Origin: a virus
Taxonomy: Duplodnaviria; Heunggongvirae; Uroviricota; Caudoviricetes
Virus record (IMG/VR): IMGVR_UViG_3300018479_000131
Strand: one strand, 5' to 3'
Length of the DNA: 6,405 bases
Within the stretch, counting starts at the first letter, position 1. Each line of letters opens with the position of its first letter. The translations under genes and the position numbers were made by a program. Positions 21 through 6,405 of this stretch are shown here, in pieces. The notes beneath the pieces were generated by a model, which saw nothing but the letters and a program-made list of their open reading frames with translations, searched no databases and was not told where the DNA came from.

Positions 21-87
21 GAGCAGGATCATTACCGGCAAAAATACGTACTTCCGCACGCTGTTCAGTGATTGTTTTCGTTACCAT
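21..87 (-). CDS. Head decoration protein (lambda gpD-like), N-terminal fragment only; the rest runs off the window and into the adapter
   Basis: Reverse complement of 87..21 translates as MVTKTITEQRAEVRIFAGNDPA. An AGGAGG Shine-Dalgarno lies upstream on the minus strand (revcomp of about 93-104), though the spacing of about 12 nt is long. It sits directly downstream of the gpC-like stop, where lambda has D, and the NDPA motif resembles the N-terminus of lambda gpD as recalled. Only 22 codons are visible. Confidence 0.5.
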
Positions 88-123
88 ATTGTAAAAACCT
101 CCTGTTGATAGTCAGCACTGACT

Positions 124-726
124 TCATGGCATGGCCATGAGCATTTTCACGTCCGCATCACCGTCTGCTGACGTCTGTGGCACGCCACCCTGTACCGCTG
201 CCGGTGAATGGTTCGCCATGAAATGTTCAAACATGGCGGTTGTGGATGCAGAGACCGGTTCTGCCTTACCTGCTCCCGCCGCCAGCACAGCCCGGGCGCT
301 CTCCACAGTCATTCCCGGGCAGGCAGCCAGCTGTTCAGCCTGCGCCTCAGCCCCTTTTGCCTCATCCAGTGCTATGATCTGATCACGGAGTGATGGTCCG
401 GCATCCGCCTGCGGTGAAGCAGCCAGGATCGGGCGGGCTTTTTCCACCGTCATCTCCGGCATCGCCGCCAGCGTTGCCGCCAGTTGTTCACGACCGTTCG
501 CTTCTTCACACGCCATAATGCGATCGGCTTCACTCTGCGTGGATGCCACCGGCTGCTGCGGTGCCGCCGCGGCCAGAATCGCCCGGGCCTGTTCAACGCT
601 CATACCCTGTTGTCCTGCCAGCATCGTGGCAAGCTGTTCACGTCCTTTCGCTTCCTGGCATGTCAGGATCCCCATCACTCGCTGGTTCTCCTGCGCGGCG
701 GCTTCCGTTGCAGTTAATTGCGGCAT
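124..726 (-). CDS. Candidate nested in-frame scaffold protein (Nu3-like) from internal initiation within the gpC gene; the start codon is uncertain
   Basis: The in-frame ATG at 726..724 (Met302 of the gpC-like ORF) is preceded on the minus strand by GAGGAGG about 6 nt upstream (revcomp of 727-740 is TCAGAGGAGGCACT). In lambda, Nu3 is made by in-frame internal initiation inside C. Met231 (939..937) and Met241 (909..907) lie nearer the position of the lambda Nu3 start by alignment but have weaker ribosome-binding sites. Confidence 0.3.
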   Translation of the reverse strand: MPQLTATEAAAQENQRVMGILTCQEAKGREQLATMLAGQQGMSVEQARAILAAAAPQQPVASTQSEADRIMACEEANGREQLAATLAAMPEMTVEKARPILAASPQADAGPSLRDQIIALDEAKGAEAQAEQLAACPGMTVESARAVLAAGAGKAEPVSASTTAMFEHFMANHSPAAVQGGVPQTSADGDADVKMLMAMP

Positions 727-3211: not shown

Positions 3212-3414
3212 AACCTCACTCCCAGCGGACGACGGCGACGTCGGGTTGTCCCCAGTACCGACTCCGCATCATTGATCGCCCGGTTAAGCTCATCCAGAGA
3301 AGCCGCCGTATATTCAATTCTGCGACCATCTTTCTGGACAGACACCACCCGTTTACCGGTTAATAAATCAAGGCGCGCCTGACGCAGCGCCTGCAGTTCA
3401 GCGACTGTAACCAT
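3208..3414 (-). CDS. W: Head-tail joining / head completion protein (lambda gpW-like)
   Basis: 68 aa, the same length as lambda gpW. Its sequence [51 protein letters not shown]...RRRRP parallels lambda W (TGKRVATVQKDGRRVEFTA...RRRGP) as recalled. A GGAGGA Shine-Dalgarno lies upstream, and the gene sits between the terminase large subunit and portal genes. Confidence 0.9.
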   Translation of the reverse strand: MVTVAELQALRQARLDLLTGKRVVSVQKDGRRIEYTAASLDELNRAINDAESVLGTTRRRRRPLGVRL

Positions 3415-5326
3415 TCACTCCTCCGGACAGCTTCGCTGCCAGTTCTTTAAGGGTTGGCCGGGTCGTCTCTTCTTCCCGGGATTTTGCCAGTACAGCCAGA
3501 TCAAGCTGCCAGCGCTGCACGGACACACGTAATGCCGCGTAGGCATACACCAGGCAGTCCAGCGCTTCGTTACGCCGCTTTTTGTTATCCCACAGCAGAC
3601 GCATCTTTCCTTTTTCCCACTTCTCCACAAGCTCTTCCGCAACCAGTTGCTGCGCCTCTGTCTGCGAAAAAATCTCCGGATCATCAGGAAAACGGATGGC
3701 ATACGACGTGGCTTCATCCGCAGGCGTGGGATCGGCTTTCATACGGGCATAGAGAATCTCTTTTGCGGTGTCCGTCCCCACTTCACACAGATACACGCCC
3801 CGCTGATTGCGGGTTTTTGGCATGGTGATCACCGGCTTGCCATAGACAGATGCGCCTTTTACCGGCAGCACCCGGAAAACACCGTGTTTTTTTGACCTCT
3901 GATAAACGATTTCGCCATCGATCCCCCCGATGTCCCAGCAGACACGGGAAATGGTCATTTCGGTTCCGTCTGCATGACGGTATTTTTTGTTGATCGCCGC
4001 ATCCACACGTAACAGCGTCTCTTCCTCATCGGGACGCCCCATAATGATGATTTTATCCACCAGAAAGGCTTCCTCTCCCGGAGCCCATCCCCAGACATAC
4101 ATCTCAAAACGGTTTCGCTGCGAGTCAATGCCCGCCGTCAGATAAACCACCCGGGCAGGCACTGCCGCCGTGTAACGCACAACCTTATCCATCAGTACCT
4201 GGTGATCGAGTTTTTCGCCCACGGCCTCTTCCCAGGTCTCGCCCAGCGTGGTGTTCACAAAGGTTTTCAGGCCGTTGGGATCTTTCAGTGCATCCAGCCA
4301 GTCATAGACAATCTGTACCCAGGTGGTGAACGGACTGTACGCCGTCCAGATATGGAACGTGATGGAGCGCGGCGGCGGAATTTCATTACCCGCAGCGCTG
4401 AAAAACATCAGACCGTCACGGGTCCACATGCCCGTGTTTTCACAAATCCACCGCCCGTTGCTCTGGTCCAGTTCAGACTGATGGATCACGCAGCCATGAT
4501 GTTCACAGAGGTAGAAAACACTTTCGGGACTGTCCTTCTCCCATTTAAGCCCAAAAGGCGTGGACTCATCGCCAAATTTCAGATACTGCTCCTCCCCACA
4601 GTGCGGGCAGGGCACATAAAAACGCATGAAATGCGCCGACTCGTTGGCCGCTTTTTCGATCTGGCAGGAGCCTTTTATTTTAGGCGTCGAGCCGCGAATG
4701 GATTTTGGCCATACAGAGCCCTCAATACGCTTATCCCCCAGCAGGGTTGGCGAGCCCTCTTTTTCAACATCCGGCTCGAACGAGGAAAGTTCGTCATAGC
4801 AGACCACATCCACGGATTTTTCACGGTAGTTTTTGGCGGCAGCACCACCCAGGCACCAAAAACCCACACGGGAAGTGAATCTTTTTAATGTCAGCGTGTT
4901 ATCCCGGTGCTTACGTCCCAGCCAGGGGGAAAGAATTTTCAGACAGGGAACATCCCGTAATGTTGACTCCACATGAGACTTCATAAAATCTTCAGCGGCA
5001 GAATCCGTAGGCTGAAACAGAAGACTGTTACGGTTTTTATGCTCAATAAAGTAACCAATAACGCCCATCAGCATTTTGGTGTAACCGACTCGAGCTGATT
5101 TTATAAGATTAATCGTGCGGATCCGGTCATTACCCATGCAGTTCATTATTGCCACCTGAAATGGCAACGTCTTCCACCGCCCAGCAAGATAAGAGGACTC
5201 CGGGGGCAAATAATAATTTTGATCGGCCCATTCAACGGTGGTTACAGGCAGTGGGCGTAAAAGCCCACGAAGTGCCACTCCACAAACAACAGCAAAGTTA
5301 TTTAGCTGCTTCTCTGAGGTATTCAT
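3398..5326 (-). CDS. A: Terminase large subunit (lambda gpA-like)
   Basis: 642 aa against 641 in lambda gpA. Long colinear matches by eye include [192 protein letters not shown] and [13 protein letters not shown]. Confidence 0.96.
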
Positions 5327-5846
5327 CCAGCATCTCCGGTAACTTCTCTGCCGTTGATGCGCATCGGTTTGCCGCCTTTGCTATATCGGTTTTCAGGAAA
5401 TCAAGCATAGCGGGCGTCAGTGCCGAAAACTGTCTCTGCATGGACAATGGAATGGAGTCAAGAATGGCAGAGATCTCCTGTGCCAGTCTTCCCAGAGCAA
5501 AAAGGCAAAACCCTGTATCAATGACCTGCCCACTGTCGCGGGCATTTTTCAGTTCCTGTGCATCTGCCTGTGCCTTCGTCAGTCGGTAACGTTCGTAATC
5601 AATGGTGCCGGGCTGAAGGTCTGATTCGCTGGCAGCCCTCAAATCCTCGACCTCTTTACGGAGTTTTTCGTTTTCAATATCAGCTTCGCGCTGCGCATAC
5701 CACTGAATGGCAGCAGTTGTATCAAAAACTGATTCAGTCCCTTTCCCTCCACCAGAAACTAGTGGTAACCCCTGACTCTGCCAGGCGGTGATGGTCCTGA
5801 CATCAACGCCAAAAATATCGGCCAGTTTTTTCTTATTGACGTTCAT
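5298..5846 (-). CDS. nu1: Terminase small subunit (lambda Nu1-like)
   Basis: 182 aa against 181 in lambda Nu1. It has an N-terminal helix-turn-helix-like segment ([24 protein letters not shown]) and a GGGKGTES motif (nt 5730-5753, minus strand), and is colinear with lambda Nu1 as recalled ([52 protein letters not shown]). It overlaps the gpA-like start by 29 nt and lies immediately downstream of cos. Confidence 0.95.
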
Positions 5847-5865
5847 ACACTCATCCGGAAACCAG

Positions 5866-5918
5866 AAAGGATCTGAAAATGGCGTTTTCGGACAAAAACA
5901 GCCTTTGTCAGATCCTTT
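5866..5918. promoter_or_regulatory. Perfect 11-bp inverted repeat with a 31-bp spacer inside cosB; candidate paired binding sites (R-site-like) for the small terminase subunit
   Basis: AAAGGATCTGA at 5866-5876 and TCAGATCCTTT at 5908-5918 are exact reverse complements. The element lies 20-70 bp upstream of the Nu1 start, where lambda carries the inverted R2/R1-type elements. Confidence 0.55.
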
Positions 5919-5941
5919 TATATTTTTAATATTCTATTGAT

Positions 5942-5954
5942 AATCAATCAGTTA
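5942..5954. promoter_or_regulatory. IHF binding-site consensus match (candidate I1-like site of cosB)
   Basis: AATCAATCAGTTA matches the IHF consensus WATCAANNNNTTR exactly. It is embedded in an AT-rich tract between the R3-like element and the inverted repeat, as the IHF site I1 is in lambda cosB. Confidence 0.5.
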
Positions 5955-6015
5955 AAAAGAAGAAGAACGGATCTACTTTTTCCCGAAAAATTTTCATAAA
6001 TAGTGAAAACGCGCG

Positions 6016-6027
6016 AGGTCGCCGCCC
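6016..6027. other. cosN: the 12-bp lambda-type cohesive-end sequence (terminase nicking site)
   Basis: 6016-6027 reads AGGTCGCCGCCC, the exact reverse complement of the lambda cohesive end GGGCGGCGACCT, and is flanked on both sides by near-lambda-identical sequence. Confidence 0.9.
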
Positions 6028-6058
6028 CGTAACCTGTCGGATCGCCGGAAAGGACCCG
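6028..6058. promoter_or_regulatory. cosQ-containing segment (right-end side of cos)
   Basis: CGTAACCTGTCGGATCGCCGGAAAGGACCCG is the reverse complement of the last ~31 bp of the lambda genome right end (…CGGGTCCTTTCCGGTGATCCGACAGGTTACG as recalled), with a single mismatch. Confidence 0.8.
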
Positions 6059-6062
6059 AAAA

Positions 6063-6079
6063 ATGATAATAATTATCAT
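6063..6079. promoter_or_regulatory. AT-rich palindrome ATGATAAT-A-ATTATCAT; candidate operator in the intergenic region upstream of the plus-strand small gene
   Basis: 8-bp arms are exact reverse complements around a single central base. A related palindrome ATAAT-CA-ATTAT lies at 6122-6133, and GCATC-containing direct repeats lie at 6077-6083 and 6097-6103. Confidence 0.35.
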
Positions 6080-6226
6080 CTACATATCACAACGTGCATC
6101 TACGCCATCAAACCACGTCAAATAATCAATTATGACGCAGGTATCGTATTAATTGATCTGCATCAACTTAACGTAAAAACAACTTCAGACAATACAAATC
6201 AGCAACACTGAATACGGGGCAACCTC

Positions 6227-6405
6227 ATGTCAACTAAGAACAGAACCCGCAGAACAACAACCCGCAACATCCGCTTTCCTAACCAAATGATTGAACAAAT
6301 TAACATCGCTCTTGAGCAAAAAGGGTCTGGGAATTTCTCAGCCTGGGTCATTGAAGCCTGCCGTCGGAGACTAACGTCAGAAAAGAGAGCATATACATCA
6401 ATCCA
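6227..6405 (+). CDS. Small basic protein, 3'-truncated at the window end; resembles the DUF3950 YlcI/YnfO family of lambdoid prophages; possible ribbon-helix-helix DNA-binding fold
   Basis: ATG at 6227 opens a frame with no stop to the window end, translating as MSTKNRTRRTTTRNIRFPNQMIEQINIALEQKGSGNFSAWVIEACRRRLTSEKRAYTSI. The six-frame track omits it because it has no stop. The pattern is basic N-terminus, short beta-like strand (NIRFP), helix, Gly turn, helix. In E. coli K-12 prophages, ylcI and ynfO lie next to Nu1 homologues (noh genes) as I recall. The ribosome-binding site is weak (GGGG about 8 nt upstream). Confidence 0.55.
   Translation, partial: MSTKNRTRRTTTRNIRFPNQMIEQINIALEQKGSGNFSAWVIEACRRRLTSEKRAYTSI

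What the first reader, a model, noticed from the sequence alone, without database searches (positions are those of the whole stretch)
5847..6060. Complete lambda-type cos site with near-identical cosQ-cosN core but a diverged cosB
The 12-bp cohesive end and about 30 bp on either side match lambda almost base for base. The Nu1-proximal half of cosB (5850-5980) differs and carries its own 11-bp inverted repeat. In lambdoid phages cosN and cosQ are interchangeable, whereas packaging specificity is set by the match between cosB R-sites and the Nu1 helix-turn-helix (as in lambda versus phage 21). This element may therefore have a distinct packaging specificity while producing lambda-compatible cohesive ends. 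A complete cos next to intact terminase genes also suggests the element is packaging-competent rather than a decayed remnant.
Basis: partly seen in the sequence, partly recalled or inferred. Interest (0 to 1): 0.45.

Follow-up and report, generated by a model that had tools for sequence, protein, structure and literature searches.

The report
Lambda-type cos with Gifsy-1-class cosB
This is an ordinary, complete lambda-type DNA-packaging site of an E. coli prophage whose terminase-binding half, and the matching DNA-binding domain of the small terminase, belong to the Salmonella Gifsy-1 type rather than the lambda or phage 21 type.

Summary
On the minus strand, window 6027-6016 is the lambda cohesive end GGGCGGCGACCT (12/12). 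The 30 bp on the cosQ side match lambda 29/30 and the 30 bp on the cosB side 27/30. cosQ (GGGTCCT) lies at 6057-6051.

cosB keeps lambda's layout almost base for base: R3, a perfect IHF consensus (I1), an inverted R2, then R1. All three R boxes carry the core AGATCC instead of lambda GTTTCC or phage 21 TGTCGG.

The Nu1 recognition helix is RTITAWQS, against lambda RTIQNWQE and phage 21 RTIERWQS. It differs at residues 20 and 24, and R3 differs at bp 56. These are positions that published genetics ties to lambda/21 discrimination.

Salmonella phage Gifsy-1 has the same R core and nearly the same helix. Its cosB layout is already noted in the literature, and its DNA-binding domain is in the PDB (7LXS).

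Across 84 surveyed loci, helix class and R-box core pair without exception. cosB plus Nu1 codons 1-48 moves as a cassette.

This cosB type occurs in 652 of 5426 complete E. coli genomes. A specificity distinct from lambda and 21 is well supported by inference but untested. Low novelty.

The parts
6051..6057 (-). cosQ (GGGTCCT on the minus strand), the packaging-termination subsite, at -30..-24 from the nick
   Evidence: The sequence and position are identical to the cosQ annotated in the phage 434 and 21 records. It is invariant in all 16 distinct class members aligned.
6011..6032 (-). cosN nicking site; the 12-nt 5' cohesive end GGGCGGCGACCT is 6027..6016
   Evidence: 12/12 identical to lambda, 434, 21 and PhiR5_1. 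The flanking CG dinucleotides are conserved.
5978..6010 (-). I2 spacer (bp 18-50), the AT-rich segment between cosN and R3
   Evidence: Bases 13-49 are 84% identical to lambda, 89% to 21 and 95% to PhiR5_1. The I2 extent is taken from PMC4856287.
5963..5978 (-). R3 box (bp 50-65), core AGATCC at bp 54-59 = window 5969-5974; predicted primary TerS site
   Evidence: The core sits in the same register as lambda's GTTTCC at bp 54-59. The box is 13/14 invariant across five divergent lineages. It contains GATC.
5942..5954 (+). I1, predicted IHF site AATCAATCAGTTA (perfect WATCAANNNNTTR), bp 74-86
   Evidence: It is the only exact match in the window. Chance expectation is 0.14, and 27 of 200 shuffles gave at least one match. 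It has the same coordinates and strand as the I1 annotated in 434 and 21.
5905..5920 (+). R2 box, inverted relative to R3 and R1, core AGATCC at 5910-5915 on the + strand
   Evidence: The core is at bp 113-118, against lambda's 114-119. AAAGGATCT is present in all five divergent lineages.
5864..5879 (-). R1 box, core AGATCC at bp 154-159 = window 5869-5874
   Evidence: Lambda's core is at bp 156-161. AGATCCTTTC is invariant across five lineages. Together with R2 it forms the 23-nt inverted repeat.
5298..5846 (-). Small terminase subunit (Nu1/TerS homologue, 182 aa). The DNA-binding winged helix-turn-helix is about codons 1-55. The recognition helix, residues 17-24 RTITAWQS, is window 5798-5775.
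   Evidence: Pfam Phage_Nu1 E = 5e-84. PDB matches are 7LXS, 1J9I and 6HN7. The translation was checked.
3398..5326 (-). Large terminase subunit (gpA homologue, 642 aa), the enzyme that nicks cosN
   Evidence: Pfam GpA_ATPase and GpA_nuclease match over nearly their full length. It is 66% identical to lambda gpA over 639 aa, with KSARVGY, AGIDSQ and RRNEALDC conserved.

Best explanation
Window 5847-6060 is the cohesive-end site of a lambda-like E. coli prophage. It reads leftwards, on the minus strand.

**Mechanism, by homology with lambda (inferred).**
1. Dimers of the small terminase subunit bind the R boxes through the recognition helix RTITAWQS of their winged helix-turn-helix domain.
2. 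IHF bound at I1 bends the DNA so that R3 and the inverted R2 face one dimer.
3. The subunit bound at R3 positions the large subunit about 47 bp away on cosN.
4. The large subunit makes two nicks 12 nt apart, leaving the lambda-identical end GGGCGGCGACCT.
5. cosQ, 24-30 bp upstream of the nick, acts when packaging terminates at the next cos.

**What differs from lambda and 21.** Only the recognition code differs. All three R boxes have the core AGATCC, and the helix carries T20, A21 and S24. This is the code of Salmonella phage Gifsy-1.

**Modularity.** cosB plus Nu1 codons 1-48 (about bp 53 to window ~5700) is a recombination cassette. Here it sits between a 434-like right end and a PhiR5_1-like TerS C-terminal region.

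**Shown versus inferred.** The sequence anatomy, the homology, the co-occurrence of helix and R box, and the mosaic boundaries are shown. Binding, the bend, the nick positions and the specificity are inferred.
For: - **Anatomy.** cosN is 12/12 identical to lambda and cosQ is identical. R cores lie at bp 54-59, 113-118 (inverted) and 154-159, against lambda's 54-59, 114-119 and 156-161. A perfect IHF consensus occupies the same bp 74-86 as the I1 annotated in 434 and 21.
- **Genes.** Nu1, gpA, W, portal and S49 protease are all full length.
- **Recognition code.** Helix and R cores were compared with lambda, 434, 21, N15, PhiR5_1 and Gifsy-1. Gifsy-1 has CAGATCC in R3, R2 and R1 and the helix RTVTAWQS.
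- **Survey of 84 loci.**
  - All 22 with RT(I/V)TAWQS have AGATCC boxes. Of these, 21 have two forward and one inverted; one deletion variant has a single box.
  - All 20 lambda-helix loci have GTTTCC.
  - All 36 loci with a 21-type helix have TGTCGG.
  - All 6 with RTIDRWQT have ATGTC(A/G).
  - AGATCC boxes occur only in the first of these classes.
- **Footprint across five diverged lineages.** R3 is 13/14 invariant, R1 10/14, and R2's AAAGGATCT is present in all five. The spacers are only 12/42 and 5/33 invariant.
- **Cassette behaviour.**
  - The window's Nu1 residues 1-50 are 100% identical in 19 loci; in 17 of them residues 51-182 are only 58-61% identical.
  - PhiR5_1-type loci are 99% identical in residues 51-182 but 70% in 1-50, and they carry other R boxes.
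  - Against PhiR5_1 there are 55 mismatches in nt 1-144, then 2 in nt 145-549.
- **Literature.** Specificity resides in the helix and R boxes, with residues 20 and 24 and bp 56 and 59 critical (PMC4669245). [quoted passage not shown]
Against: - No experiment bears on this element or, in the papers I could read, on Gifsy-1's specificity.
- The R boxes share TCC(G/T)TTCT with lambda, including bp 58 and 59. N15 terminase packages lambda DNA despite very different R boxes. Partial or one-way cross-recognition with lambda is therefore possible.
- Helix and R boxes lie within 250 bp of each other, so their co-occurrence is partly plain linkage.
- The window's R3 has T at bp 53, where most E. coli members have C. 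T or G at that position does occur in L120, L121 and SerU.
- No isolated coliphage among the 50,697 phage records carries this cosB. Production of virions by the E. coli lineage is therefore not documented here.
Confidence: 0.78

Rival explanations
1. The site is a working cos, but its specificity is not really separate. The R boxes are near enough to lambda's that lambda-type and this terminase cross-package each other's DNA, at least in one direction, as N15 terminase does with lambda DNA.
For: The 12-nt R consensus differs from lambda's at only three adjacent positions: CAGATCCKTTCT against CGTTTCCKTTCT. bp 58 and 59, both important in lambda, are unchanged. The wing residues GGGKG and K35 are conserved. 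N15 provides a precedent for asymmetric sharing (PMC4669245).
Against: The three changed positions include bp 56, the contact of lambda Glu24, and residue 24 is Ser here. Residues 20 and 21 also differ. All three R boxes changed in concert, and the code is held across E. coli, Salmonella and more distant lineages. That pattern suggests selection for a specific match.
Confidence: 0.2
2. The site is a relic in a defective prophage. The sequence looks complete but no longer supports packaging, for example because of the R3 bp-53 change or defects outside the window.
For: The window shows only five head genes. The closest complete-genome relative, E. coli 1303, has IS elements and pseudogenes in its prophage. 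No isolated phage carries this cosB. A sister prophage has lost I1 and R2 by deletion.
Against: All five genes are full length with conserved catalytic motifs. cosN and cosQ are identical to those of working phages. R cores are intact. T or G at bp 53 occurs naturally in other members. The cosB type is kept in 652 of 5426 E. coli genomes, mostly at 80-95% identity.
Confidence: 0.15
3. The inverted repeat at 5866-5918 acts mainly as a hairpin, either an RNA stem-loop or terminator upstream of Nu1 or a DNA cruciform, and not as two protein-binding sites.
For: It folds at -25.4 kcal/mol with z = -5.1. Lambda's homologous segment does the same, at -34.4 kcal/mol and z = -5.8. The pairing extends through the spacer between the boxes in seven of the nine lineages folded, with different sequences. 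On the + strand a T-rich run follows the stem.
Against: The consensus scan calls no terminator there, and Rfam finds nothing. On the Nu1 sense strand no U-run follows the stem in the window. In lambda the same two arms are established TerS sites. A third, unpaired copy (R3) with the same core lies 100 bp away at the lambda R3 position. The two roles are not mutually exclusive.
Confidence: 0.07

Closest known systems
cos of Salmonella phage Gifsy-1 (NC_010392) and its small terminase (DNA-binding domain in PDB 7LXS)
   Same: The R-box core is the same, CAGATCC(G/T)TTC, at R3, inverted R2 and R1, with near-identical spacing (cores at bp 54-59, 114-119 and 155-160). The recognition helix is nearly the same, RTVTAWQS against RTITAWQS. 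The DNA-binding domain is 86% identical over residues 1-50.
   Different: - Gifsy-1's cohesive end differs from lambda's at bp 8, 9 and 11 (GGGCGGCAGCGT), whereas the window's is lambda-identical.
- The spacers differ, and the I1 region of Gifsy-1 is not a perfect IHF consensus.
- The cosQ flank differs.
- The TerS C-terminal region is only 60% identical.
- The host is different.
cos of phage lambda and phage 434
   Same: cosN and cosQ are identical. The right flank is 90% (lambda) and 98% (434) identical. The order and spacing of I2-R3-I1-R2-R1 are the same, R3 is in the same register, and the R-box 3' half (G/T)TTCT is shared.
   Different: The R core is AGATCC rather than GTTTCC at bp 54-56 in all three boxes. 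Helix residues 20, 21 and 24 are T, A, S rather than Q, N, E. The Nu1 start is 9 bp closer to cosN (bp 182 against 191).
cos of phage 21
   Same: cosN and cosQ are identical and the architecture is the same. Ser24 is shared, and the DNA-binding domain is somewhat closer overall, with 75% identity over 61 aa.
   Different: Phage 21 R boxes are C(A/G)TGTCGG with G at bp 56 and 59. Its helix has E20 and R21.
cos of phage N15 ('simple' cosB)
   Same: It has a lambda-like 12-nt end and a TerS of the same family. It is the documented case of a third packaging specificity.
   Different: N15 has a single R3 (GAGGTTGTTGTT), no I1, R2 or R1, and a 39%-identical TerS. The window has the complex three-box cosB.

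Membership tests
lambda-like cos (as defined by Feiss and co-workers: 12-nt 5' cohesive ends related to lambda's, with cosQ, cosN and cosB) | A 12-base cohesive-end sequence with strong identity to lambda's, flanked by the conserved CG dinucleotides | tested here: met
   12/12 identity at window 6027-6016 and conserved flanks. That these bases really become single-stranded ends is not testable with these tools.
lambda-like cos | The 7-bp cosQ about 30 bp upstream of the nick | tested here: met
   GGGTCCT at -30..-24, window 6057-6051, as annotated in 434 and 21.
lambda-like cos, complex cosB | Three R boxes in the order R3-I1-R2-R1, with R2 inverted and an IHF site between R3 and R2 | tested here: met
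   Cores at bp 54-59 (forward), 113-118 (reverse) and 154-159 (forward), with WATCAANNNNTTR at bp 74-86.
lambda-like cos | Adjacent genes for a Nu1-type small subunit and a gpA-type large subunit | tested here: met
   Pfam Phage_Nu1 E = 5e-84; GpA_ATPase E = 8e-55; GpA_nuclease E = 7.5e-71; 66% identity to lambda gpA.
lambda packaging-specificity class (lambda, 434, phi80) | R boxes CGTTTCC with T at bp 56, and TerS helix with Q20 and E24 | tested here: not met
   The window has A at bp 56 and T20/S24. None of the 20 lambda-helix loci has AGATCC boxes.
phage 21 packaging-specificity class | R boxes C(A/G)TGTCGG with G at bp 56 and 59, and TerS helix with E20 and S24 | tested here: not met
   The window has A56, C59 and T20. 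S24 is shared.
Gifsy-1-type cosB/TerS pair | R boxes with core AGATCC and TerS helix RT(I/V)TAWQS | tested here: met
   Both are present in the window, Gifsy-1 and 20 further loci.
Gifsy-1-type cosB/TerS pair | A packaging specificity functionally distinct from lambda, 21 and N15 | not testable with these tools
   No experimental report was found in the held literature. Only the deposited structure 7LXS and sequence-level remarks exist.

The most novel reading that the evidence does not exclude
The AGATCC-type cosB/TerS pair is a fourth packaging specificity of lambda-like phages that has never been tested experimentally. It is widespread in E. coli and Salmonella prophages.

Every one of its R boxes embeds a Dam site (GATC), which the R cores of the lambda, 21 and PhiR5_1 classes lack. 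TerS binding, and so the start of packaging, could therefore depend on the methylation state of cos, as cleavage of the phage P1 pac site does. The small helix residues Thr20 and Ala21 would leave room for, or contact, the N6-methyl groups.
Probability: 0.15. Interest if true: 0.55.

Novelty: new member of a known kind. Interest (0 to 1): 0.25.

Why it matters
**For annotation.** The site fixes the genome ends of this prophage family, and no feature is annotated under the cosB match in any of the 40 E. coli records listed. It also predicts which co-resident lambdoid prophages could package each other's DNA. All would make ends that anneal with lambda's, but initiation would be private to the AGATCC class.

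**For the field.** The survey gives a clean natural example of cosB and the TerS DNA-binding domain moving together as a ~275-bp cassette. It shows at least five helix/R-box codes among lambda-like terminases, whereas only three specificities are documented experimentally.

None of this changes the accepted model of lambda packaging.

Tried and rejected
- **Rfam scan of the whole window.** No family matched.
- **Promoter and terminator scan of 5750-6405.** No terminator was called at the inverted repeat, only weak promoter-like matches in AT-rich DNA.
- **Isolated phages with this cosB.** None was found among 50,697 records. Only the SerU-LTIIb prophage fragment (74% identity, decayed cosN) and a 49-bp I2 match to PhiR5_1 turned up. 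IdasGreatGrand looked close by protein identity but has the 21-type helix and boxes.
- **Papers I could not read.** I tried three: Sippy et al. 2015 on contacts and clashes, Vahanian et al. 2017 on the natural history of cosN, and Feiss et al. 2015 in Virology on N15. None is held. No paper citing 7LXS describes the Gifsy-1 domain.
- **The R3/R1-fusion 'simple cosB'.** I checked whether it is common. It occurs on a single IMG/VR contig.
- **CAGATCC alone as a chance test.** It is uninformative: 2 matches against 0.9 expected. The longer box and the positional match carry the evidence.
- **PICI cos.** I considered whether the window could be a phage-inducible island cos with a foreign cosB. I rejected this because the site is followed by a full set of terminase, portal and protease genes.

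Full report
**What is in the window**

The minus strand carries the left end of a lambda-like genome. Pfam assigns these genes:

| Window | Product |
|---|---|
| 5846-5298 | Nu1 small terminase (E = 5e-84) |
| 5326-3398 | gpA large terminase (ATPase and nuclease domains, near full length) |
| 3414-3208 | gpW |
| 3211-1619 | lambda-family portal |
| 1629-124 | S49 prohead protease |

On the plus strand from 6227 there is a DUF3950 (YlcI/YnfO) gene, as at the right end of 434-like phages. The large subunit is 66% identical to lambda gpA over 639 residues, with its conserved motifs intact. The whole window is 98% identical to prophages in bovine E. coli strains.

**Checking the observation**

I set base 1 at window 6027 and read the minus strand.

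- The first 12 bases are GGGCGGCGACCT, identical to lambda, 434 and 21.
- The 30 bases before the nick match lambda 29/30, and bases 13-42 match 27/30.
- Over 83 bases on the cosQ side the window is 98% identical to phage 434.
- cosQ, GGGTCCT, sits at -30..-24 (window 6057-6051), as annotated in the 434 and 21 records.
- Similarity to lambda-type phages ends near bp 45-78.
- The reported 11-bp inverted repeat exists, at 5866-5876 and 5908-5918. It extends to 23-nt arms.

One correction is needed: the cosN-proximal R3 box also differs from lambda, not only the Nu1-proximal half.

**Anatomy of cosB**

The hexamer AGATCC occurs three times. The positions almost coincide with lambda's GTTTCC cores.

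| Box | Core, this element (bp) | Core, lambda (bp) | Core, window | 18-nt context, this element | 18-nt context, lambda |
|---|---|---|---|---|---|
| R3 | 54-59, forward | 54-59 | 5969-5974 | AAGTAGATCCGTTCTTCT | AGGCGTTTCCGTTCTTCT |
| R2 | 113-118, inverted | 114-119 | 5910-5915 | TGTCAGATCCTTTTATAT | TGTCGTTTCCTTTCTTTT |
| R1 | 154-159, forward | 156-161 | 5869-5874 | TTTCAGATCCTTTCTGGT | TGTCGTTTCCTTTCTCTG |

- Between R3 and R2, at bp 74-86 (window 5942-5954, bottom strand), lies AATCAATCAGTTA. It is a perfect match to the IHF consensus and the only one in the window. It occupies the coordinates annotated as I1 in 434 and 21.
- The code differs from lambda's at three adjacent base pairs, 54-56 (GTT to AGA). 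It differs from phage 21's C(A/G)TGTCGG at more positions.

**The protein side**

The window's Nu1 matches solved DNA-binding domains of lambda (1J9I, 7LW0, 6HN7), phage 21 (7LWR) and Gifsy-1 (7LXS). Residues 17-24, the recognition helix according to PMC9026076, compare as follows:

| Phage | Helix, residues 17-24 |
|---|---|
| This element | RTITAWQS |
| Lambda | RTIQNWQE |
| Phage 21 | RTIERWQS |
| PhiR5_1 | RTIDRWQT |
| Gifsy-1 | RTVTAWQS |

Published genetics places lambda/21 discrimination at TerS residues 20 and 24 and at R3 bp 56 and 59, with Glu24 of lambda contacting the T:A pair at bp 56 (PMC4669245). The window has Thr20 and Ser24, with A at bp 56 and C at bp 59. That combination is neither lambda's nor 21's.

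**Relatives**

- Gifsy-1 has CAGATCC cores at R3, inverted R2 and R1 with the same spacing, and 86% identity over Nu1 residues 1-50.
- I collected 134 loci encoding Nu1 relatives from genome and viral collections. I scored the 84 that had a usable upstream region.
  - All 22 loci with RT(I/V)TAWQS carry AGATCC boxes. Of these, 21 have two forward and one inverted, and one has a deletion.
  - All 20 lambda-helix loci carry GTTTCC.
  - All 36 loci with a 21-type helix carry TGTCGG.
  - All 6 RTIDRWQT loci carry ATGTC(A/G).
  - AGATCC boxes occur only in the first of these classes.
- I aligned five diverged members: the window, another E. coli prophage, Gifsy-1, SerU-LTIIb and the distant locus L120.
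  - R3 is 13/14 invariant and R1 10/14. R2's AAAGGATCT is present in all five.
  - The spacers keep only 12/42 and 5/33 columns.
- The T at bp 53 of the window's R3 is unusual among E. coli members. T or G at that position occurs in L120, L121 and SerU. The constrained core is therefore AGATCC(G/T)TTCT.

**A recombination cassette**

- The window's Nu1 residues 1-50 are 100% identical in 19 loci. In 17 of them residues 51-182 are only 58-61% identical.
- PhiR5_1-type loci are 99% identical in residues 51-182 but 70% in 1-50, and they carry different R boxes.
- At nucleotide level, PhiR5_1 shows 55 mismatches in Nu1 nt 1-144 and 2 in nt 145-549. Locus L078 shows none in nt 1-156 and diverges from about nt 306.
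- Upstream, the window and PhiR5_1 are 95% identical through bp 13-49 and diverge from R3 on.

The exchanged unit therefore runs from about bp 53 to Nu1 codon 48. That is cosB plus the DNA-binding domain, the two parts that must match. This goes beyond simple linkage, because the flanks on both sides have been reassorted while the pair stayed together.

**How common, and how well known**

- The cosB segment 5847-5990 is found in 652 of 5426 complete E. coli genomes, including O157:H7 strains at about 81% identity. No feature is annotated under the match in any of the 40 records listed.
- Among 50,697 phage records, only the SerU-LTIIb prophage fragment resembles it at DNA level over most of its length (88% of the query at 74% identity), plus a 49-bp match to PhiR5_1. 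Gifsy-1 resembles it only at motif level.
[quoted passage not shown] It also aligns Gifsy-1's left end with an underlined R3 (PMC4856287).
- The experimentally documented specificities are lambda (shared by 434 and phi80), 21 and N15 (PMC4669245). I found no test of Gifsy-1's.

**Mechanism and rivals**

The best explanation is a working lambda-type cos. Its initiation step uses the Gifsy-1-type TerS:R-box code, and its nicking and termination signals are lambda's. I put this at about 0.78.

- **Main rival (0.2): incomplete separation of specificity.** Nine of the twelve consensus positions are shared with lambda, and N15 terminase packages lambda DNA.
- **Relic in a defective prophage (0.15).** The window alone cannot exclude it.
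- **Hairpin role for the R2/R1 dyad (0.07).** The segment folds well, with z = -5.1 against -5.8 for lambda's homologue. No terminator is called there, and a hairpin role does not exclude protein binding.

**Verdict**

The site is an ordinary member of a known kind. It is a lambda-like cos of the Gifsy-1 cosB type, in a mosaic E. coli prophage.

The most novel reading still open is that this class is a fourth, untested specificity whose R boxes all contain Dam sites. That would make initiation sensitive to methylation.

Noticed in passing
L096 1316-1503 (same contig as L147 10631-10659; IMGVR_UViG_2529293040_000025): One prophage of the same class has a 'simple' cosB. R3 and R1 are fused (…AAAATCAGATCCTTTCTGG…), and the ~100 bp holding I1 and R2 are deleted. 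This is the unequal R3/R1 crossover that Feiss and co-workers proposed for the origin of N15's single-R cosB. The junction occurs on only one IMG/VR contig.
   Followed up: partly
window 5869-5874, 5910-5915, 5969-5974 (and 6039-6042): Every R box of this class contains GATC, the Dam methylase site. The R cores of the lambda, 21 and PhiR5_1 classes contain none. GATC is kept in all three boxes of every complete cosB of this class examined, including Gifsy-1, SerU-LTIIb, L120 and L121. Whether methylation affects TerS binding is unknown.
   Followed up: partly
window 5866-5918; L003 110-166: The R2/R1 dyad does not stop at the boxes. The spacer between them is itself self-complementary, forming an inner stem of A/T runs closed by G:C pairs. 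This holds in lambda, 434, 21, the window, Gifsy-1, SerU and PhiR5_1, with different sequences in each, but not clearly in L120 or L072. On the window's + strand a T-rich run (5919-5932) follows the stem.
   Followed up: partly
L005 1316-1506 and L067-L071: PhiR5_1-type prophages form a further helix/R-box pairing. The helix is RTIDRWQT and the boxes are CATGTCAG, GATGTCGT and CATGTCGT. This is a variant of the phage 21 code, attached to a TerS C-terminal region 99% identical to the window's.
   Followed up: partly
loci, e.g. L084-L095: Cohesive-end variants GGGCGGAAGGCG and GGGCGGCAGCGG occur in both 21-class and lambda-class loci. All changes are in bases 7-12. This agrees with the published remark that the right half of cosN varies.
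   Followed up: no
L017-L020, L022-L025, L033, L043-L045, L048-L051, L054-L056, L058: Lambda-type Nu1 sequences sit on very short contigs, or on roughly 48-kb contigs, in assemblies of unrelated organisms. Examples are Kitasatospora, Chromatium, Paenibacillus, Psychrobacter, Bradyrhizobium and Limosilactobacillus. This looks like lambda DNA contamination of those assemblies.
   Followed up: no
L146 19970-20012 (E. coli 1303): This relative has a 100%-identical cosB but an unrelated right flank. Its cosQ GGGTCCT lies one base closer to the nick (CCTTCC instead of CCTTTCC). An IS3 lies about 0.5 kb upstream.
   Followed up: partly
window 5859-5864: A single lambda-type core, GTTTCC, lies just after R1 (…CTGGTTTCCGGATG…). 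It also occurs in Gifsy-1 and some other members of the class. It is probably chance or a remnant.
   Followed up: no
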